A stretch of DNA of 64,000 nt from Escherichia phage PECP20, in sequence record OQ873415.1; one strand, given 5' to 3'. The position numbers were made by a program, and so were the translations under genes. Shown piece after piece: positions 3,730 through 13,590 of this stretch. Numbering within the stretch: position 1 is the stretch's first letter; each line of letters starts with the position of its first letter. Below the pieces are notes generated by a model that saw only the letters and a program-made list of their open reading frames with translations, was not told the origin of the DNA and did no database searches.

Positions 3730-4689
3730 TTATGATTTTAATGCATTCATTGCATTAAAAAGTTTAGAGTACTGCAACTGGAGATTCGTTACAACACTTT
3801 GAGCATCACGAAGCTTAGCTTGTGCTTTGTCAAGTTCAACGGACAGTTGGTCTGCAGTAGCCTTGATTTGGTTGTAATGATAATCTTCGGCCGGAAGAAG
3901 GTCATTAGAAACATTTAGTTTTACTGCCGACAGTTTGCACACATTTGGCAAACCTTTAAACATACCGGGTTGTGTCGGAGAATATGCGCTTAGAACCTCT
4001 GCATTACCGACTGGTGTTGCTGTGATATTGCCTTCGAACGTTGCATTTTCCTTTTTAAGATTTTGATAGTATTCAGAGTCTTTGTGCCACCATGGCGCAG
4101 GAACCTTTTTACCAATAGATACACGAGCCTGGATAGCGATATGGCCCTTATTCTTGATAGGGTCGATAATATTAAGCTCACGAGAATAAATTGCTTTAAT
4201 CTGGTGGATATTATCACCTAAAACTTCTAACGCTTGGTGGAATACACGAGCAACGTTATCGTTCTTAGGTTTATACGTGAGAGTGAACTCGTTCTCGCTG
4301 ATAACCATGATTTCCAACTTATCGTAAGTATATTTCAAATGTTTCATGTTAATTGCTTGAGGACGAATACGAGAAGCAATGGCCATCAGATTGTTAAGGT
4401 TATTCCGGAACTGCTTAGCGAAATATTGTCCTTCACCGCCAATACAAAAATTACGAAGTTTCTGTTTGGCTAATAAACGGCTGAACTCACCATTTTTAAT
4501 GAACTCTTTAACGGGCGTGTTAGTAACACATTCAAATTGAGTAAACATACGAGAAGTAATCCCATAATACGAACAGACTTCCTCAATCTCTTCAGGAGTT
4601 TTTACAGGCATACGGATAGGATTAGGTCCTGGAGTATATGCGTTCGAGGTAAATTCTTTGATAAGTTCTCTACGTGTAATAAAAGCCAT
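3730..4689 (-). CDS. hypothetical protein with C-terminal coiled coil, 319 aa
   Basis: ORF track; promoter at 4713-4746 nearly identical to the one at 3693-3726. Confidence 0.7.
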   Translation of the reverse strand: MAFITRRELIKEFTSNAYTPGPNPIRMPVKTPEEIEEVCSYYGITSRMFTQFECVTNTPVKEFIKNGEFSRLLAKQKLRNFCIGGEGQYFAKQFRNNLNNLMAIASRIRPQAINMKHLKYTYDKLEIMVISENEFTLTYKPKNDNVARVFHQALEVLGDNIHQIKAIYSRELNIIDPIKNKGHIAIQARVSIGKKVPAPWWHKDSEYYQNLKKENATFEGNITATPVGNAEVLSAYSPTQPGMFKGLPNVCKLSAVKLNVSNDLLPAEDYHYNQIKATADQLSVELDKAQAKLRDAQSVVTNLQLQYSKLFNAMNALKS

Positions 4690-4712
4690 TTTATATTCCT
4701 CATGTTGAAAAA

Positions 4713-4746
4713 TTTATTATACTCCAACCATCCTTGGTTGTACATC
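4713..4746 (-). promoter_or_regulatory. early promoter, duplicate of 3693-3726
   Basis: Plus strand ttattatactccaaccatccttggttgta repeated at both sites. Confidence 0.6.
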
Positions 4747-5740
4747 ATTCCTTAAGAAGTTTTACTACTTGAATAAGATTAGCTCGTTCTGTTTTATTTT
4801 TACCATTTAAGCCTGCTAATCGTGAGATTTCATCGTCAGTCTGTTGAATAGTTACATTAAGTTCGTTAATCAAAGCTTCAAAGTATTTGATTTGCTCAGC
4901 ATGTTTTGATTCAAATTTCTGAACCGGAATAACGTCTTGGTTCAGTTCATCAATAAGGTCTTTAAGAGCATCTTCTTGGTTGATATCGTATTCAACTTCT
5001 TTTATTTCTTCAACGAACTCGTTTTTATATCTAACATCTTTTAGTCCTGGTGCCGGTCCTGAAATCTCTTCTTTAAGAGTACAAACATACCCAATACGGT
5101 ATTGGATACCGTCTCGCTTGATATCAACTTCGTCGATAAATCCGCAATGTTTAAGACCAGAGCCGATTAGGTCAAAATATCCTTGACGTCGTCCTTCAAA
5201 CGTTACACGAACTACTAAGACAGTTTTGCCAGCGACCTTTTGAAGCTCACATTTATAAAAGTTCGTTGAACCTGAATAACGTGGATGAGTTTTAAAGTTC
5301 ATCTGACGATCTAGGCCCATTTGTAAACGTGCTGTTACGGCCATAAAACGTGTTTGGTTCTCGTTAAGATGAGCAACAATCCATTTCAAAGGCATTTTAC
5401 CCTGTTCACGACCGAACAAATCAGTACATCCTAGATTACGCAGGATGTTGTTAGAGTTAATCATCGACAGAACGTTAAGTTTATTCAGCGCGCTGAAGAT
5501 TCCATCAGCCATTGATTTTCCATAACCTTTACACGCTTTAATAAGTGCTCGCGGCAGATTAGTATAGATTTCAGACGGCATATGAAAATCAAATTTACTA
5601 GTCAGTAATTGATGAACTTGGATAGCAATTTGCTCGTAATTAAGTGCTCTGCGATCATTATGGTCTTTAAACCACACTTTAATCTGTGAAGCACATAAAC
5701 CGTTAATTTCATGTTTTACCGCATCAGATGTAATGCTCAT
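4745..5740 (-). CDS. hypothetical protein with C-terminal coiled coil, 331 aa
   Basis: ORF track; same architecture as the two ORFs downstream of it. Confidence 0.7.
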   Translation of the reverse strand: MSITSDAVKHEINGLCASQIKVWFKDHNDRRALNYEQIAIQVHQLLTSKFDFHMPSEIYTNLPRALIKACKGYGKSMADGIFSALNKLNVLSMINSNNILRNLGCTDLFGREQGKMPLKWIVAHLNENQTRFMAVTARLQMGLDRQMNFKTHPRYSGSTNFYKCELQKVAGKTVLVVRVTFEGRRQGYFDLIGSGLKHCGFIDEVDIKRDGIQYRIGYVCTLKEEISGPAPGLKDVRYKNEFVEEIKEVEYDINQEDALKDLIDELNQDVIPVQKFESKHAEQIKYFEALINELNVTIQQTDDEISRLAGLNGKNKTERANLIQVVKLLKE

Positions 5741-5802
5741 AACTATTTCCTCAGATTGAATTGGAACTCAAAACCATTATAACCCGTCCTTGGGTAAAGC
5801 GT

Positions 5803-6330
5803 TTATGCGTGAACCGTCTTTAAACGTTCTTCAAATTTCCGAAGAGTACTAATACGTTCTGCTTTCTGTTTTGTATAGTTTGCAATACGTTCTGAAGTGA
5901 GAGCGTATCGTTCGTTTACTGTTTCTTTCATGAAGTCAGGGATTTCACGAGAAGCTTTAATTTCATCAAACTTGTCGAGTACTGCCTGGTCTTCAGCGAT
6001 TAAATTTTCATACATCTCGATATCTTTCTTGATAAACTCGATATCTTCCTGGGTTACTTTGGATAAACGAGACGCTTTATCCTTTTTGTACTGCTCGTTA
6101 GTTTCACGAGACCAGAATAATGTACGTTTTTTGTTAGTGTTTTTGTAGACTTCCACAATTCCAACTGAATCGATGATAACAATCCAATTCCAGCGAGATT
6201 TGAAAATCTGACCTCCGTCCACGGTAATCTCGTTATCATAAGCAACGTCATTAAAGAACTTGCTTTGTGCTTCAGATTTAAATTTACCGTCGTTATAATT
6301 TACCAGGTTGAAAATATCTTTAGCGTTCAT
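5803..6330 (-). CDS. hypothetical protein, 175 aa
   Basis: ORF track; RBS GGAGG and early-promoter cassette immediately upstream. Confidence 0.7.
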   Translation of the reverse strand: MNAKDIFNLVNYNDGKFKSEAQSKFFNDVAYDNEITVDGGQIFKSRWNWIVIIDSVGIVEVYKNTNKKRTLFWSRETNEQYKKDKASRLSKVTQEDIEFIKKDIEMYENLIAEDQAVLDKFDEIKASREIPDFMKETVNERYALTSERIANYTKQKAERISTLRKFEERLKTVHA

Positions 6331-6344
6331 GTTTTACCTCCAGT

Positions 6345-6387
6345 AGTTGATAGGTCTATAATAACATAACCATAGACCTTGTAAACA
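6345..6387 (-). promoter_or_regulatory. early promoter cassette
   Basis: Minus strand GTTTAC-N17-TATTAT, with inverted repeat GGTCTAT...ATAGACC. Confidence 0.6.
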
Positions 6388-6388
6388 A

Positions 6389-6676
6389 CTAAAAGAAACT
6401 TTTTTCAGTATTTTTTCCACTGAACCAAACAGACTTCGGGATTTTTTGTAATTTTTCAGACTTAAGTTTCTCTTCCTGTTCTTTCTTATATACTCCCTTG
6501 TCGTACTGGAGCATCTCTAGGGCATTCTTTTGCAAACGATCTAAGGTAATTAAGGCTTTAGTTTTTCCTTTCAAGGAAGAGTCCTGGCGAACTTCCTCGC
6601 TATATTGCATCGTAGAACTAACCATACGATGTGCATACAGTTCGACTGCGGCTTTGATTTTTTGCATAAAATCCAT
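6389..6676 (-). CDS. hypothetical protein, 95 aa
   Basis: ORF track only. Confidence 0.5.
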   Translation of the reverse strand: MDFMQKIKAAVELYAHRMVSSTMQYSEEVRQDSSLKGKTKALITLDRLQKNALEMLQYDKGVYKKEQEEKLKSEKLQKIPKSVWFSGKNTEKSFF

Positions 6677-6814
6677 AACATATCCTCTTTGATTTGTACA
6701 TCATTATTTTTAAATATTTCTATGCCCTCAGTAGGTTCCTGGTGTCCTTCTTTGAGGTAAGCCATATGGTTATTAATCTTTGTGGCTTTTGTTACCTCAG
6801 GACTTCCTGTAAGC

Positions 6815-7816
6815 TTATTTCAGTAAAGTTACTTCAGAGATTTCCTCCCAACCATCTTTATCGGTTGAAATAAAATCTGCTACATAAAGAGCCGTACGTA
6901 ATGATACATTGCGAAGACGAGATACATTAGCCTTCATCCAGGACAATGCTTTATACGTTTCAGCATCAGTCAAGCCACGTTTCTGCATCATATCAGTAGA
7001 TAATATTACATCTTCAACTCGAACCATAATCTCTTCATTAGAGTGTACTCCAAGGTCGAGATACACTGAACGAGATACTAAAGCTTGAAGGTGTGGAGCA
7101 AGTTTCGAACCCCGTTCTAACTCTTTATCGATATCAACGTTTGTAATGAAAACGATAGTACCTTCAAACTCAAATTCTTTATCAATACCCTTATCCTCGA
7201 GATAAGATGACGCAGTGCTCCAACAAACTTTGCGTTTATCTCCGGTATCTAATGCTGCTTTAAGAAGGTTCAGGATGTCCATATCTGAGAATACGTCAAC
7301 GTCATCGATTAAGAGAACGCTGTCTTCATCACGGTTGAGCCAAAGTTGTTCGTAAAGGCCAATACCGGAGATTTTACCATTAATGCTTTTGTATTTGATG
7401 AAACCATTATCATTAGCATTATTAAGTGCTTTATCCAGAGAATACGTCTTACCAATACCAGCTGCACCTGAAATAATGAGTGAACGAATTTTGCCATCAA
7501 TAATGCCATTCGTCATCATGTTCATTACTTTAAAGCGTTTGTTGATACGAGTTTTCATATCTTCAGTGCTTTCAACAACTGCAACTGGTGACGTCTCAAC
7601 TCCTTCCATTACGATGTCTGATTTGAAGACCCATACTCCACGTTCAGAACCATCAATCATAACGAAAATTTTACCATCACCTAAGTGGGAACATTCAGGA
7701 TTAAGCTTTGCCGGGAACCATGTCTTTGTGGCAACATAAGAACCAGAGATTTCGTTATTACGATAGATACCTTTTTTGATTTGAACGTTGAACATTTTAT
7801 TCTCCAATTTACTCAT
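6815..7816 (-). CDS. P-loop NTPase (AAA-like ATPase) with about 110-aa N-terminal extension
   Basis: Walker A GAAGIGKT, Walker B VLLIDDVD, downstream FITN sensor-like segment; promoter cassette upstream. Confidence 0.75.
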   Translation of the reverse strand: MSKLENKMFNVQIKKGIYRNNEISGSYVATKTWFPAKLNPECSHLGDGKIFVMIDGSERGVWVFKSDIVMEGVETSPVAVVESTEDMKTRINKRFKVMNMMTNGIIDGKIRSLIISGAAGIGKTYSLDKALNNANDNGFIKYKSINGKISGIGLYEQLWLNRDEDSVLLIDDVDVFSDMDILNLLKAALDTGDKRKVCWSTASSYLEDKGIDKEFEFEGTIVFITNVDIDKELERGSKLAPHLQALVSRSVYLDLGVHSNEEIMVRVEDVILSTDMMQKRGLTDAETYKALSWMKANVSRLRNVSLRTALYVADFISTDKDGWEEISEVTLLK

Positions 7817-11597: not shown

Positions 11598-11620
11598 TAT
11601 TTATAACAACCCTGTCAAAT
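11598..11620 (-). promoter_or_regulatory. combined sigma70-like (TTGACA...TAATAT) and late-type (TATAAATA) promoter upstream of rI.1/rI
   Basis: Minus strand TTGACAGGGTTGTTATAAATACTAATAT. Confidence 0.45.
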
Positions 11621-12182
11621 CATTCCAATGCTTCCGGCATAATGACACATATCTATCGGTATCACCAATTTCAATTTGACTGCCATCTGTAATTGGAAGT
11701 CCGTCTTCCGTGACTCTAGCTACCATTGTGGCCTTTTTACCACAATGACAGACACCTTTAAGTTCAACAAGCTTATCGGCAATAGCCATTAATGCTTGAG
11801 AACCTTCAAATAGATTACCTTTAAAATCTGTTCGTAGTCCATATGCCATTACCGGCACATTGTATACGTCAACAATACGACTAAGTTGATACACCTTTTC
11901 AGTAGTTAAGAACTGAGCTTCGTCAACAAATACGCAGTGAATATCCTTTTGTGCTGCAGCCCATTTATAGAATTCAAAGATATCCATGTCTTTTGTAATT
12001 ATATTGGCATCCTGACGAATACCAATACGAGAGACTATTTCACCTTTTGAATCACGAGTATCAATAGCCGGTTTAAGAACTAATACACCCATGCCACGTT
12101 CTTTATAGTTATGTGCGGCAGTAAGTAATGAAGCAGACTTACCAGCGTTCATAGCGGCATAGGTAAAAATTAAACTAGCCAT
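11601..12182 (-). CDS. tk: thymidine kinase
   Basis: 193 aa; P-loop NAGKSASLL, DEAQF Walker B, C-terminal zinc cysteines; matches T4 Tk as recalled. Confidence 0.93.
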   Translation of the reverse strand: MASLIFTYAAMNAGKSASLLTAAHNYKERGMGVLVLKPAIDTRDSKGEIVSRIGIRQDANIITKDMDIFEFYKWAAAQKDIHCVFVDEAQFLTTEKVYQLSRIVDVYNVPVMAYGLRTDFKGNLFEGSQALMAIADKLVELKGVCHCGKKATMVARVTEDGLPITDGSQIEIGDTDRYVSLCRKHWNDLTGLL

Positions 12183-12374: not shown

Positions 12375-12598
12375 TTAGGTTCACCTTCTTTAACGAAATC
12401 TGGGTAAGGGTAAAATCCTGAGTAAAACCCTTCACCTTTATGATTGCTACAACCTTTGTTCGAACAGTAACACCAATAATCAAAATCACAAGCCATTTCG
12501 TCATTGCATAAAGCAAAAACTACAGGCCATTCGCATTTTTCGCATTTAGCACCTGTAAGAATTTTTGTTTGACTCATAACCATTTGACCTGCATGCAA
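12371..12598 (-). CDS. hypothetical Cys-rich protein, 75 aa
   Basis: ORF track; about 9 cysteines including CEKCEW and CYCSNKGC. Confidence 0.5.
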   Translation of the reverse strand: MHAGQMVMSQTKILTGAKCEKCEWPVVFALCNDEMACDFDYWCYCSNKGCSNHKGEGFYSGFYPYPDFVKEGEPK

Positions 12599-12786
12599 TA
12601 TTCTTCGACATGCTTTTTACGACATTTCTTATCAATAAAGGTATATTCCATAAAGCGTCCATGATAACGACGTTCAACATCGTGAGGGGTGTTAATAGGA
12701 CACTTAGTCTGGCGAATTTCTTCCCATTCACGAATAATAACTGCTTTATTCTTTGGGTCATACGGGTGAGGATAATGCACATTCAT
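12574..12786 (-). CDS. hypothetical protein, about 70 aa
   Basis: ORF track, start moved to ATG (MNVHYPHPYD...) overlapping upstream stop. Confidence 0.5.
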   Translation of the reverse strand: MNVHYPHPYDPKNKAVIIREWEEIRQTKCPINTPHDVERRYHGRFMEYTFIDKKCRKKHVEEYCMQVKWL

Positions 12787-13250
12787 AACAATGGTTCCCA
12801 ATCAACAATCACAATTTCTAGTTTAGTGGAATACGTATCTAAAATCTCTTCGATGACATCCCAGTTTCCACCACCAATACCTGCACCAATTCTTGGCATA
12901 TAAATTACAGGCTTTGTTATCTTATTTTTTCCGAATTCATTTAATTCTATTATACAATTCATTAAAGCAGAGTACTCAAAATTAGGTCCCGGCTCAAACT
13001 GTGTATAAAGATTAAAGCAATAAGCTTTATGGGTCTTAAAATATTTTTCATAAACCGAATAAGTCCCGAGTTTAGACTCGTCTCCGAATTCGGTTTGAAG
13101 TTTATCGGCTTCTAAAATTTTTGGATAAGCCTTTGCCAATTGACCTGCTACACCGGCACCCATTGTATGAAAACAATTGCACCCATGAGCAATATTATTA
13201 CCTTTAGAAAACAGGGCGACAATATCGCCCTTGATATAGTTTTTAATCAC
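12783..13250 (-). CDS. macro-domain (ADP-ribose binding/processing) protein
   Basis: 155 aa; GDIVALFSKGNNIAHGCNCF...MGAGVAG is a typical macro-domain N-terminal core. Confidence 0.7.
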   Translation of the reverse strand: MIKNYIKGDIVALFSKGNNIAHGCNCFHTMGAGVAGQLAKAYPKILEADKLQTEFGDESKLGTYSVYEKYFKTHKAYCFNLYTQFEPGPNFEYSALMNCIIELNEFGKNKITKPVIYMPRIGAGIGGGNWDVIEEILDTYSTKLEIVIVDWEPLL

Positions 13251-13590
13251 TTGCTACAAGTCCTCTAGTATAAGAGTCAACTAGACGGTCCACCATAGAA
13301 TTGCATGCTGCCTTATCTTTAGGTTCCGCCACCGAGCATTCTAATATTTGCCATTTTTTATAGTATCTTTTAATTAAGGTAGACGCCTTGAACCTACTAG
13401 ACGCCCCATCTTTTTCTCCGTCTTTATACGCATATAACAATTTTTGTGAAAAATCTACTTTACACTCTTGACTTTTACCACAATAATCAGACGCCGTTCT
13501 GTTTGTATACTCCGTTACATCAGTATATGTAGTATTAGCAAGAGCGTTAAATGAAACCAAGCCAACTATTAAAGCTAACATTTTGGTCAT
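13243..13590 (-). CDS. hypothetical secreted protein, 115 aa
   Basis: Signal-peptide-like N-terminus MTKMLALIVGLVSFNALA; several cysteines. Confidence 0.6.
   Translation of the reverse strand: MTKMLALIVGLVSFNALANTTYTDVTEYTNRTASDYCGKSQECKVDFSQKLLYAYKDGEKDGASSRFKASTLIKRYYKKWQILECSVAEPKDKAACNSMVDRLVDSYTRGLVASD

What the first reader, a model, noticed from the sequence alone, without database searches (positions are those of the whole stretch)
12783..13250. Phage-encoded macro domain protein next to tk
The 155-aa ORF has the macro-domain core GDIVALFSKGNNIAHGCNCF...MGAGVAG. Macro domains bind or hydrolyse ADP-ribose adducts. In a phage this could reverse host ADP-ribosylation-based defence (DarT-type DNA modification) or process signalling nucleotides.
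Basis: partly seen in the sequence, partly recalled or inferred. Interest (0 to 1): 0.45.

Follow-up and report, generated by a model that had tools for sequence, protein, structure and literature searches.

The report
Phage anti-DarT2 macrodomain (AdfM/Tk.4 ortholog)

Summary

The window is a Mosigvirus-like T4 relative. The gene is the syntenic ortholog (84% aa) of T4 tk.4. A 2025 preprint (HIDEN-SEQ) found tk.4 to be the only T4 gene needed on a DarTG2 host and renamed it adfM. The window's own allele is untested.

My refinement: this family is not a DarG-type enzyme. The catalytic Lys of DarG and TARG1 is an invariant Gln (Q84, 121/121 homologs), flanked by invariant or near-invariant His22, Asn25 and Asn80. 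This is the active-site signature of Streptomyces SCO6735, a lysine-free macrodomain shown to cleave thymidine-linked ADP-ribose from DNA.

PhiKZ "AdfM" (gp104) is a separate, Lys-bearing, DarG-like lineage. Bacterial relatives are stand-alone orphans with no DarT nearby. T5, which is DarTG2-sensitive, has no homolog.

Verdict: ordinary and already explained; interest is low to moderate.

The parts
12783..13250 (-). CDS, 155 aa: stand-alone macrodomain, ortholog of T4 tk.4 / adfM
13261..13265 (-). Shine-Dalgarno-like GAGGA, 10 nt upstream of the GTG start
   Evidence: Read directly from the sequence. Conserved as GAGGA in T4, Sf24, IME281 and JK36.
13176..13178 (-). Codon for Asn25. Equivalent to DarG N22, PhiKZ gp104 N23 and SCO6735 N27, which contacts the distal ribose and positions the Gln.
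   Evidence: Alignments. Asn in 119 of 121 homologs. Mutating the equivalent residue lowers activity in SCO6735 and in PhiKZ gp104.
12999..13001 (-). Codon for Gln84, at the position of the catalytic Lys of DarG (K80) and TARG1 (K84) and equivalent to the essential Gln85 of SCO6735
   Evidence: hhalign and hmmsearch alignments. Gln in 121 of 121 homologs. SCO6735 Q85A and Q85E are inactive.
12876..12893 (-). Codons 120-125 (R-I-G-A-G-I) of the diphosphate-binding loop P119-R-I-G122-A-G124-I-G-G-G128; G122 and G124 are equivalent to SCO6735 G126 and G128
   Evidence: Alignments. G122 and G124 are present in 119 of 121 homologs, the other two being gaps.
13213..13231 (-). Conserved 8-bp hairpin inside codons 7-13, followed by a U-tract (side observation, function unknown)
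   Evidence: Terminator-like hit. Nucleotide-identical in T4, Sf24, IME281 and JK36 and lost in Karamvirus RZH. The fold of the window sequence has z=-2.8.
13243..13590 (-). Context: vs (valyl-tRNA synthetase modifier) ortholog, the upstream neighbour; its stop overlaps the macro start
12574..12786 (-). Context: tk.3 ortholog, the downstream neighbour; its ATG overlaps the macro stop (ATGA)
11601..12182 (-). Context: thymidine kinase (tk), about 600 nt downstream

Best explanation
The ORF encodes the ortholog of phage T4 Tk.4, now called AdfM (anti-DarT factor, macrodomain). It is an early, stand-alone enzyme of 155 aa. Most likely it hydrolyses the ADP-ribose that the host DarT2 toxin attaches to thymidines in single-stranded phage DNA. 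That would restore replication and make the phage resistant to DarTG2. SHOWN: the ORF, the macro fold, the intact ADP-ribose pocket, and orthology and synteny with T4 tk.4. SHOWN BY OTHERS for T4: genetic necessity on a DarTG2 host. INFERRED: that the window's own allele does the same, and that it acts by hydrolysis. INFERRED chemistry: lysine-independent and SCO6735-like. Gln84, held by Asn25, positions the distal ribose. A water molecule, not a Lys nucleophile, starts cleavage of the N-glycosidic bond to thymine.
Against: There is no biochemistry for any Tk.4-type protein. The T4 genetics come from a preprint and were done under special conditions (30 C, M9 glucose). The window's allele is 16% diverged from T4 and untested. 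The protein lacks the DarG/TARG1 catalytic Lys. It also lacks the two DNA-positioning lysines of SCO6735 (K34 aligns with Ala32; K89 lies in a loop that is 5-6 residues shorter here). Overall sequence similarity does not single out SCO6735: hhalign gives BT1257 92, TARG1 88, SCO6735 85 and DarG 82. A homolog in Vibrio phage Athena sits inside an NAD+-salvage-like gene pair, which hints at other substrates for parts of the family.
Confidence: 0.8

Rival explanations
1. The protein mainly processes small ADP-ribose derivatives, such as ADP-ribose-1''-phosphate, O-acetyl-ADP-ribose or cyclic/signalling ADPr species. It would do this either as a 'phosphatase' or to feed ADP-ribose into NAD+ regeneration. 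The anti-DarTG2 effect would then be secondary.
Against: The T4 genetics are specific: tk.4 was the single hit on DarTG2. The invariant Gln84/Asn25 pair matches the DNA-thymidine hydrolase SCO6735, whereas Poa1p has Ser at that position (F-T-S-S aligned with Y-T-Q-F). No NAD-salvage genes flank the gene in T4-like phages. The labels are automatic annotations, not assays.
Confidence: 0.08
2. The protein neutralises DarT2 mainly by binding, either to the toxin or to the modified DNA, and acts as a stoichiometric inhibitor rather than by turnover.
For: Catalytically dead SCO6735 (Q85A), DarG (K80A) and TARG1 (K84A) all inhibit DarT in vitro. SCO6735 was the strongest of the three. The other T-even factor AdfA acts by binding DarT1.
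Against: Pocket residues, including Gln84 and Asn25, are strictly invariant across phage and bacterial homologs that never meet the same DarT. That argues for catalysis. The protein has no DarT-binding C-terminal domain like that of DarG (155 aa; it matches only positions 4-146 of the 338-position DarG model). Bacterial homologs have no DarT partner.
Confidence: 0.07
3. The relevant substrate is ADP-ribosylated RNA (uracil-ADPr) or protein (Glu/Asp-linked). This would include marks from other host ART defences or from the phage's own Alt, ModA and ModB enzymes.
For: SCO6735, TARG1 and DarG also remove ADP-ribose from uracil in single-stranded RNA (PMC13036486). SCO6735 also removes it from auto-modified PARP1. 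T-even phages encode three ARTs (background).
Against: No uracil-targeting ART defence is known in E. coli. From general knowledge, Alt and Mod modify arginine, which TARG1-class macrodomains are not known to reverse. SCO6735 is inactive on 5'-phosphate and 2'-OH RNA ADP-ribosylation. The only phenotype found in T4 is with DarTG2.
Confidence: 0.05

Closest known systems
T4 Tk.4 = AdfM (anti-DarT factor macrodomain; bioRxiv 10.1101/2025.11.20.689424)
   Same: 84% aa identity over the same 155 aa, in the same position between vs and tk.3. All family-invariant residues are shared.
   Different: GTG rather than ATG start and an 8-nt rather than 4-nt overlap with vs. 16% of residues differ. This allele has not been tested.
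Streptomyces coelicolor SCO6735 (PDB 5e3b), a lysine-free ALC1/TARG1-class macrodomain that cleaves thymidine-linked ADP-ribose on DNA
   Same: The same active-site signature: His, Asn, Gln at the 'catalytic Lys' position, and the G-x-G diphosphate loop. Both are stand-alone orphans with no cognate DarT.
   Different: Only about 23% identity. The window protein lacks SCO6735 K34 (Ala32 here) and K89, and has a loop 5-6 residues shorter after the Gln. It has its own invariant residues (C26, D49, K60-L-G62, Y82) that SCO6735 lacks.
Bacteroides thetaiotaomicron BT1257 (PDB 2fg1/2afc), a structural-genomics protein of unknown function
   Different: It has no known function, and it carries the longer SCO6735-type loop.
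DarG antitoxin macrodomain (T. aquaticus 5m31/5m3e, M. tuberculosis 5m3i; NCBIfam NF048014)
   Different: DarG has the catalytic Lys80 (Gln here), a C-terminal DarT-binding domain and an adjacent darT gene. The window protein scores 31.9 bits against a cut-off of 250.
PhiKZ gp104, also named 'AdfM' (Cell Rep 2026, PMC13309987)
   Same: A phage-encoded stand-alone macrodomain that counters DarTG2. The conserved Asn is needed for activity.
   Different: It belongs to a different lineage. gp104 is a true DarG-like protein (E=9e-25 to Mtb DarG, FPTK motif with Lys). It shares only a 23-aa BLASTP match with the window protein and has the lowest hhalign score of the class (55). It is imported into the phage nucleus.
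Human TARG1/OARD1 (PDB 4j5r)
   Same: The top Foldseek hit (3e-10). It also reverses thymine- and uracil-linked ADP-ribose.
   Different: TARG1 uses a Lys84/Asp125 dyad. The window protein has Gln84 and Gly126 at those positions.

Membership tests
Macro domain superfamily (Pfam PF01661) | Sequence match above Pfam's curated gathering score | tested here: met
   28.3 bits against a cut-off of 22, E=1.9e-6, profile positions 2-117 of 118.
Macro domain superfamily (Pfam PF01661) | Three-layer alpha/beta/alpha macro fold | tested here: met
Macro domain superfamily (Pfam PF01661) | ADP-ribose pocket residues: Asp for adenine, Asn at the distal ribose, and two Gly-rich phosphate loops | tested here: met
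   D9 (D or N in 120 of 121), N25 (119 of 121), G31-A-G33, and G122-A-G124-I-G-G are all conserved and align to the corresponding residues of TARG1, DarG and SCO6735.
Macro domain superfamily (Pfam PF01661) | Physical binding of ADP-ribose | not testable with these tools
   Needs ITC, a co-crystal structure or a similar experiment.
ALC1/TARG1-like macrodomain class (TARG1, DarG, SCO6735, Poa1p) | Closest structural and sequence neighbours are members of this class | tested here: met
DarG antitoxin (NCBIfam NF048014 equivalog) | Full-length match above the curated cut-off, including the C-terminal DarT-binding domain | tested here: not met
   31.9 bits against a cut-off of 250. Only model positions 4-146 of 338 are matched, and the protein is 155 aa.
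DarG antitoxin (NCBIfam NF048014 equivalog) | Catalytic Lys (K80 in T. aquaticus DarG) | tested here: not met
   Gln84 aligns to K80 and is invariant in 121 of 121 homologs.
DarG antitoxin (NCBIfam NF048014 equivalog) | Encoded next to a darT toxin gene | tested here: not met
   The neighbours are vs and tk.3. No DarT lies near the bacterial homologs either: tblastn with DarT2 across all 80 loci found nothing, and Pfam/PADLOC scans of 94 immediate neighbours from about 55 of those loci showed no DarT among the listed families.
SCO6735-type (Gln-type) thymidine-ADPr DNA hydrolase | Gln at the Lys80/Lys84 position, supported by the conserved Asn (SCO6735 Q85 and N27) | tested here: met
   Q84 and N25 align to Q85 and N27. 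Their functional importance in SCO6735 is reported in PMC9411070.
SCO6735-type (Gln-type) thymidine-ADPr DNA hydrolase | His24 and the Gly126/Gly128 loop | tested here: met
   H22 (118 of 121), and G122 and G124 (119 of 121, the rest gaps).
SCO6735-type (Gln-type) thymidine-ADPr DNA hydrolase | DNA-positioning lysines K34 and K89 | tested here: not met
   K34 aligns to Ala32. K89 falls in a loop that is shorter here. The family has a different near-invariant basic residue, K60 (K or R in 121 of 121), whose role is unknown.
SCO6735-type (Gln-type) thymidine-ADPr DNA hydrolase | In vitro hydrolysis of dT-ADPr on single-stranded DNA | not testable with these tools
   Requires purified protein and DarT2-modified oligonucleotide.
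AdfM of T-even phages (T4 Tk.4) | Orthology: high identity and conserved gene order | tested here: met
   84% identity over 155 of 155 aa. The order vs / tk.4 / tk.3 / tk.2 / tk is conserved.
AdfM of T-even phages (T4 Tk.4) | Loss of the gene sensitises the phage to DarTG2 | not testable with these tools
   Shown for T4 only. Consistent with the absence of any homolog in DarTG2-sensitive T5.
AdfM of chimalliviruses (PhiKZ gp104) | DarG-like sequence with the FPTK catalytic-Lys motif | tested here: not met
   Only a 23-aa BLASTP match. gp104 scores 9e-25 to Mtb DarG, against 5e-3 for the window protein.
Poa1p-type ADP-ribose-1''-phosphate phosphatase (source of the 'phosphatase' label) | Poa1p active-site residues (H23 and S30, studied by mutation in PDB 6lfs and 6lft) | tested here: inconclusive
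   H22 aligns to H23. T29 aligns to S30 but is variable in the family (74 of 121). Poa1p has Ser where this family has the invariant Gln84.

The most novel reading that the evidence does not exclude
The T-even AdfM family would be an independent, lysine-free catalytic lineage. It would have been recruited from orphan bacterial 'detox' macrodomains of the SCO6735/BT1257 kind, not from the DarG antitoxin. Phages would then have acquired anti-DarT2 erasers at least twice, the other time being PhiKZ gp104 from DarG. Like SCO6735, the enzyme may also erase uracil-linked ADP-ribose on RNA. In some phages (Vibrio phage Athena) it may be coupled to NAD+ regeneration. It would then be a broad-spectrum eraser of base-linked ADP-ribose rather than a DarTG2-specific factor.
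Probability: 0.4. Interest if true: 0.4.

Novelty: already known. Interest (0 to 1): 0.22.

Why it matters
DarTG systems block phage replication by ADP-ribosylating phage DNA. T-even phages carry layered counter-measures: AdfA, AdfN and AdfM. This gene is the DarTG2-specific layer, and it occurs in about 2,800 of 50,697 deposited phage genomes. It is therefore a useful marker when predicting the host range of therapeutic T4-like phages on DarTG2-carrying strains. The one point that goes beyond the literature I could find is mechanistic. The T4-type AdfM carries the Gln-type (SCO6735-like) active site, not the Lys-type site of DarG or PhiKZ AdfM. The two proteins that share the name AdfM are thus different enzymes, and results from one should not be transferred to the other without a test.

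Tried and rejected
(1) DarG membership. I rejected it: there is no catalytic Lys, no C-terminal domain and no darT neighbour, and the NCBIfam score is far below the cut-off.

(2) Homology to PhiKZ AdfM as the explanation. The match is too weak, at 23 aa by BLASTP and the lowest hhalign score of the class.

(3) The 'phosphatase' (Poa1p-like) reading from PHROG labels. I did not adopt it, because the invariant Gln84 matches SCO6735 and not Poa1p.

(4) A functional link to tk. I rejected it. Three small ORFs separate the two genes here. Neighbours differ in other phages: NAD-salvage-like genes in Athena, and tk directly adjacent only in Karamvirus RZH.

(5) A dedicated promoter or terminator for the gene. 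Sigma-70-like sites do not exceed the shuffled expectation (12 found against 13.9 expected).

(6) A search for DarT next to the bacterial homologs. tblastn with a P. aeruginosa DarT2 against all 80 loci found nothing, and Pfam and PADLOC scans of 94 immediate neighbours from about 55 of those loci showed no DarT among the listed families. The caveats are that only one DarT query was used and only the top 25 families are listed.

(7) The conserved hairpin in the 5' end of the CDS. The sequence is identical in four lineages, so there is no covariation to test a structure. I left it as a side note.

(8) I could not inspect the model coordinates, so residue proximities such as N25-Q84 are inferred from alignment to SCO6735 and were not measured.

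Full report
OBSERVATION. The window holds a 468-nt ORF at 12783..13250 on the minus strand. It has a GTG start and a TGA stop and encodes 155 aa. A GAGGA lies 10 nt upstream of the GTG. The GTG overlaps the stop of the upstream gene (GTGATTAA). The TGA overlaps the ATG of the downstream gene (ATGA), as is typical of a tightly packed, co-translated phage early-gene array. Pfam Macro (PF01661) matches above the curated cut-off, at 28.3 against 22 bits over nearly the whole profile. PHROG 335 matches at 5e-67. A six-frame HMM scan finds this as the only macrodomain of its class in the 64-kb window. 'Next to tk' is loose, because tk (11601..12182) is about 600 nt and three small ORFs away.

WHERE THE WINDOW COMES FROM. 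The 4 kb around the gene is 97-99% identical to many Escherichia and Shigella T4-like phages, for example CAU_ECP01 and JK36, the latter classified as Mosigvirus. The gene order matches T4: rI, rI.1, tk, then three small ORFs (including tk.2 and tk.3 orthologs), [this gene], vs, vs.1, regB. In T4 the gene in this position is tk.4, annotated 'conserved hypothetical protein'. The two proteins are 84% identical over their full length. Translated matches occur in 2,799 of 50,697 phage records. Of these, 151 are at least 95% identical. They include Tevenvirinae, Felixounavirus-like, rV5-like, KVP40-like, Acinetobacter, Pseudomonas and Cellulophaga phages.

WHAT IS ALREADY KNOWN. A November 2025 preprint (HIDEN-SEQ, 10.1101/2025.11.20.689424) screened a T4 transposon library on E. 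coli expressing DarTG2. It found tk.4 as the single significant hit, and a clean deletion made T4 sensitive. The authors renamed the gene adfM and proposed, without biochemistry, that it removes DarT2's ADP-ribose from DNA. This filled a gap left by earlier work showing that T4 lacking adfA and adfN remained DarTG2-resistant (PMC11825919). Independently, a 2026 Cell Reports paper gave the same name, AdfM, to PhiKZ gp104. That paper showed gp104 removes DarT2-made ADP-ribose from DNA in vitro and that an Asn23 mutant is impaired (PMC13309987). A T2 study detected Tk.4 protein in infected cells and captured its mRNA with the host sRNA ArcZ.

The ADP-ribose pocket is intact. Asp9, Asn25, the G31-A-G33 loop and the P119-x-I-G122-x-G124-I-G-G loop are conserved. 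They align with the corresponding residues of TARG1, DarG and SCO6735. However, the catalytic lysine of DarG (K80) and TARG1 (K84) is a glutamine here (Q84), and TARG1's Asp125 is Gly126. Q84 is not a local oddity. It is present in 121 of 121 homologs, as are N80, Y82, D49 and G62. H22 is present in 118 of 121 and N25 in 119 of 121.

The literature resolves this apparent problem. Streptomyces SCO6735 also has neither the Lys nor the Asp. It carries Gln85 at that position and cleaves thymidine-linked ADP-ribose from DNA efficiently. Q85A, Q85E and N27S abolish or nearly abolish its activity, and it protects S. coelicolor from DarT (PMC9411070). I recovered the SCO6735 sequence from PDB alignments and checked its numbering against the residues named in the paper. 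In the cross-family alignment, window H22, C24, N25, N80, Q84, G122 and G124 align with SCO6735 H24, C26, N27, N81, Q85, G126 and G128. TARG1, both DarGs and PhiKZ gp104 have T-K at the Gln position. BT1257, the best structural hit, is a close SCO6735 homolog (E=1e-50).

There are differences from SCO6735. Its two DNA-positioning lysines, K34 and K89, are not conserved here: position 32 is Ala and the loop is shorter. The phage-type family also has its own invariant residues: C26, D49, the K60-L-G62 motif and Y82. Overall profile scores do not discriminate strongly within the class: BT1257 92, TARG1 88, SCO6735 85, DarG 82. PhiKZ gp104 is clearly the most distant at 55.

NOT A DarG, AND NOT THE SAME AS PhiKZ AdfM. 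The NCBIfam DarG equivalog scores 31.9 bits against a cut-off of 250, and only over the macro half of the model. PADLOC DarG matches at 9e-9. There is no C-terminal DarT-binding domain and no darT neighbour. PhiKZ gp104 is a genuine DarG-like protein (9e-25 to Mtb DarG, FPTK motif) and shares only a 23-residue BLASTP match with the window protein. Two different macrodomain lineages therefore carry the name AdfM.

RELATIVES IN CELLULAR GENOMES. A scan of one genome per species found 379 loci that encode a relative with the HGCNC signature. The hosts include Ruegeria, Desulfobacter, Verrucomicrobia, Planctomycetes, Hymenobacter and Vibrio. In the 80 loci fetched, the genes are stand-alone (about 150-190 aa). 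No DarT2-like sequence lies within 4 kb. I scanned 94 immediate neighbours, drawn from the roughly 55 loci where the macro ORF could be called. They are heterogeneous and mostly housekeeping, and 3 are NADAR and 2 NUDIX proteins. The family thus consists of orphan erasers in bacteria as well as in phages.

CONSISTENCY CHECK. T5 is the DarTG2-sensitive control in both T4 studies. A six-frame HMM search of its whole genome, using both the family profile and a cross-class macro profile, finds nothing (best E=0.13). The same search finds the window's gene at 2.6e-65.

MECHANISM I COMMIT TO. The protein is an early-expressed, stand-alone ADP-ribosylglycohydrolase. It binds the ADP-ribose attached by DarT2 to N3 of thymidine in single-stranded phage DNA and hydrolyses the ribose-base bond. 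This restores replication. The chemistry is most likely the lysine-independent, water-initiated route proposed for SCO6735, with Gln84, held by Asn25, positioning the distal ribose. The fold, pocket, signature residues and orthology are shown here. Genetic necessity on DarTG2 is shown by others, for T4. Activity of this allele, hydrolysis as the mode of action, and the detailed chemistry are inferred. My confidence that it is a functional AdfM ortholog acting against DarTG2 is about 0.8. My confidence in the Gln-type hydrolytic mechanism in particular is about 0.65.

RIVALS. (a) Processing of small ADP-ribose derivatives. This is suggested by the 'phosphatase' and 'deacetylase' labels, by the similarity to Poa1p, and by the Athena homolog wedged between Prs-like and Nampt-like genes. 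(b) Stoichiometric inhibition of DarT2, for which dead SCO6735 provides a precedent. (c) RNA or protein substrates, since SCO6735 and TARG1 also erase uracil-ADPr. None is excluded as an additional activity. Each is less likely as the main role, given the single-hit T4 genetics and the invariant catalytic signature.

VERDICT. The feature is the ortholog of a gene whose function was reported in 2025, and near-identical copies are already deposited and often annotated 'macro domain protein'. The novelty category is 'already known'. The residual interest lies in the Gln-type active site and the apparent double, independent recruitment of anti-DarT2 macrodomains by phages.

Noticed in passing
window 13213-13231 (minus strand), inside codons 7-13 of the macro CDS; U-tract to about 13204: A terminator-like 8-bp hairpin (AGGGCGAUAUUGUCGCCCU followed by GUUUUCU) lies in the 5' end of the coding sequence. 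The 20-nt core is nucleotide-identical in T4, Sf24, Dhakavirus IME281 (only 57% protein identity) and JK36, wobble positions included, but is lost in Karamvirus RZH. In the window the predicted fold also pairs the Shine-Dalgarno GAGGA with the U-tract (z=-2.8). There is no covariation, so a structural role is unproven. It may relate to the reported tk.4 mRNA-sRNA contacts in T2.
   Followed up: partly
L003 (Vibrio phage Athena NC_055851.1) 4129-7135: A homolog of the macro protein (37.6% identity) sits on the same strand, with gaps of 0-70 nt, between a 'ribose-phosphate pyrophosphokinase' gene and a 'nicotinamide phosphoribosyl transferase' gene. From memory, that pair resembles the phage NAD+-reconstitution pathway NARP1. 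This suggests that some family members may feed ADP-ribose into NAD+ resynthesis.
   Followed up: no
literature: PhiKZ gp104 versus T4 Tk.4: Two independent 2025-2026 reports gave the same name, AdfM, to two different macrodomain lineages. PhiKZ gp104 is DarG-like with the catalytic Lys. T4 Tk.4 is SCO6735-like with Gln. They share only a 23-aa BLASTP match.
   Followed up: yes
neighbours of the bacterial homologs in L004-L083: Among 94 genes flanking bacterial homologs, 3 encode NADAR domains and 2 encode NUDIX domains. NADAR is the guanine-ADPr eraser family (AdfN/DarG1), so some bacteria may pair erasers for both DarT chemistries. The other neighbours are unrelated housekeeping genes.
   Followed up: no
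window 12783-13250 and its GenBank and literature counterparts: Annotation of this gene is inconsistent. It appears as 'phosphatase', 'macro domain protein', 'hypothetical protein' and 'O-acetyl-ADP-ribose deacetylase (regulator of RNase III)'. One T2 preprint calls it 'putative thymidine kinase'. In JK36, several neighbours (the vs.1 and vs.3-vs.6 region) carry doubtful 'endoribonuclease' or 'RegB' labels.
   Followed up: no
L086 (Enterobacter phage vB_EluP_RZH, Karamvirus) 301-1056: In this genus the macro gene directly abuts thymidine kinase, with no tk.1-tk.3 ORFs in between. The small ORFs separating the two genes in T4 and in the window are therefore lineage-specific insertions or losses.
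   Followed up: no
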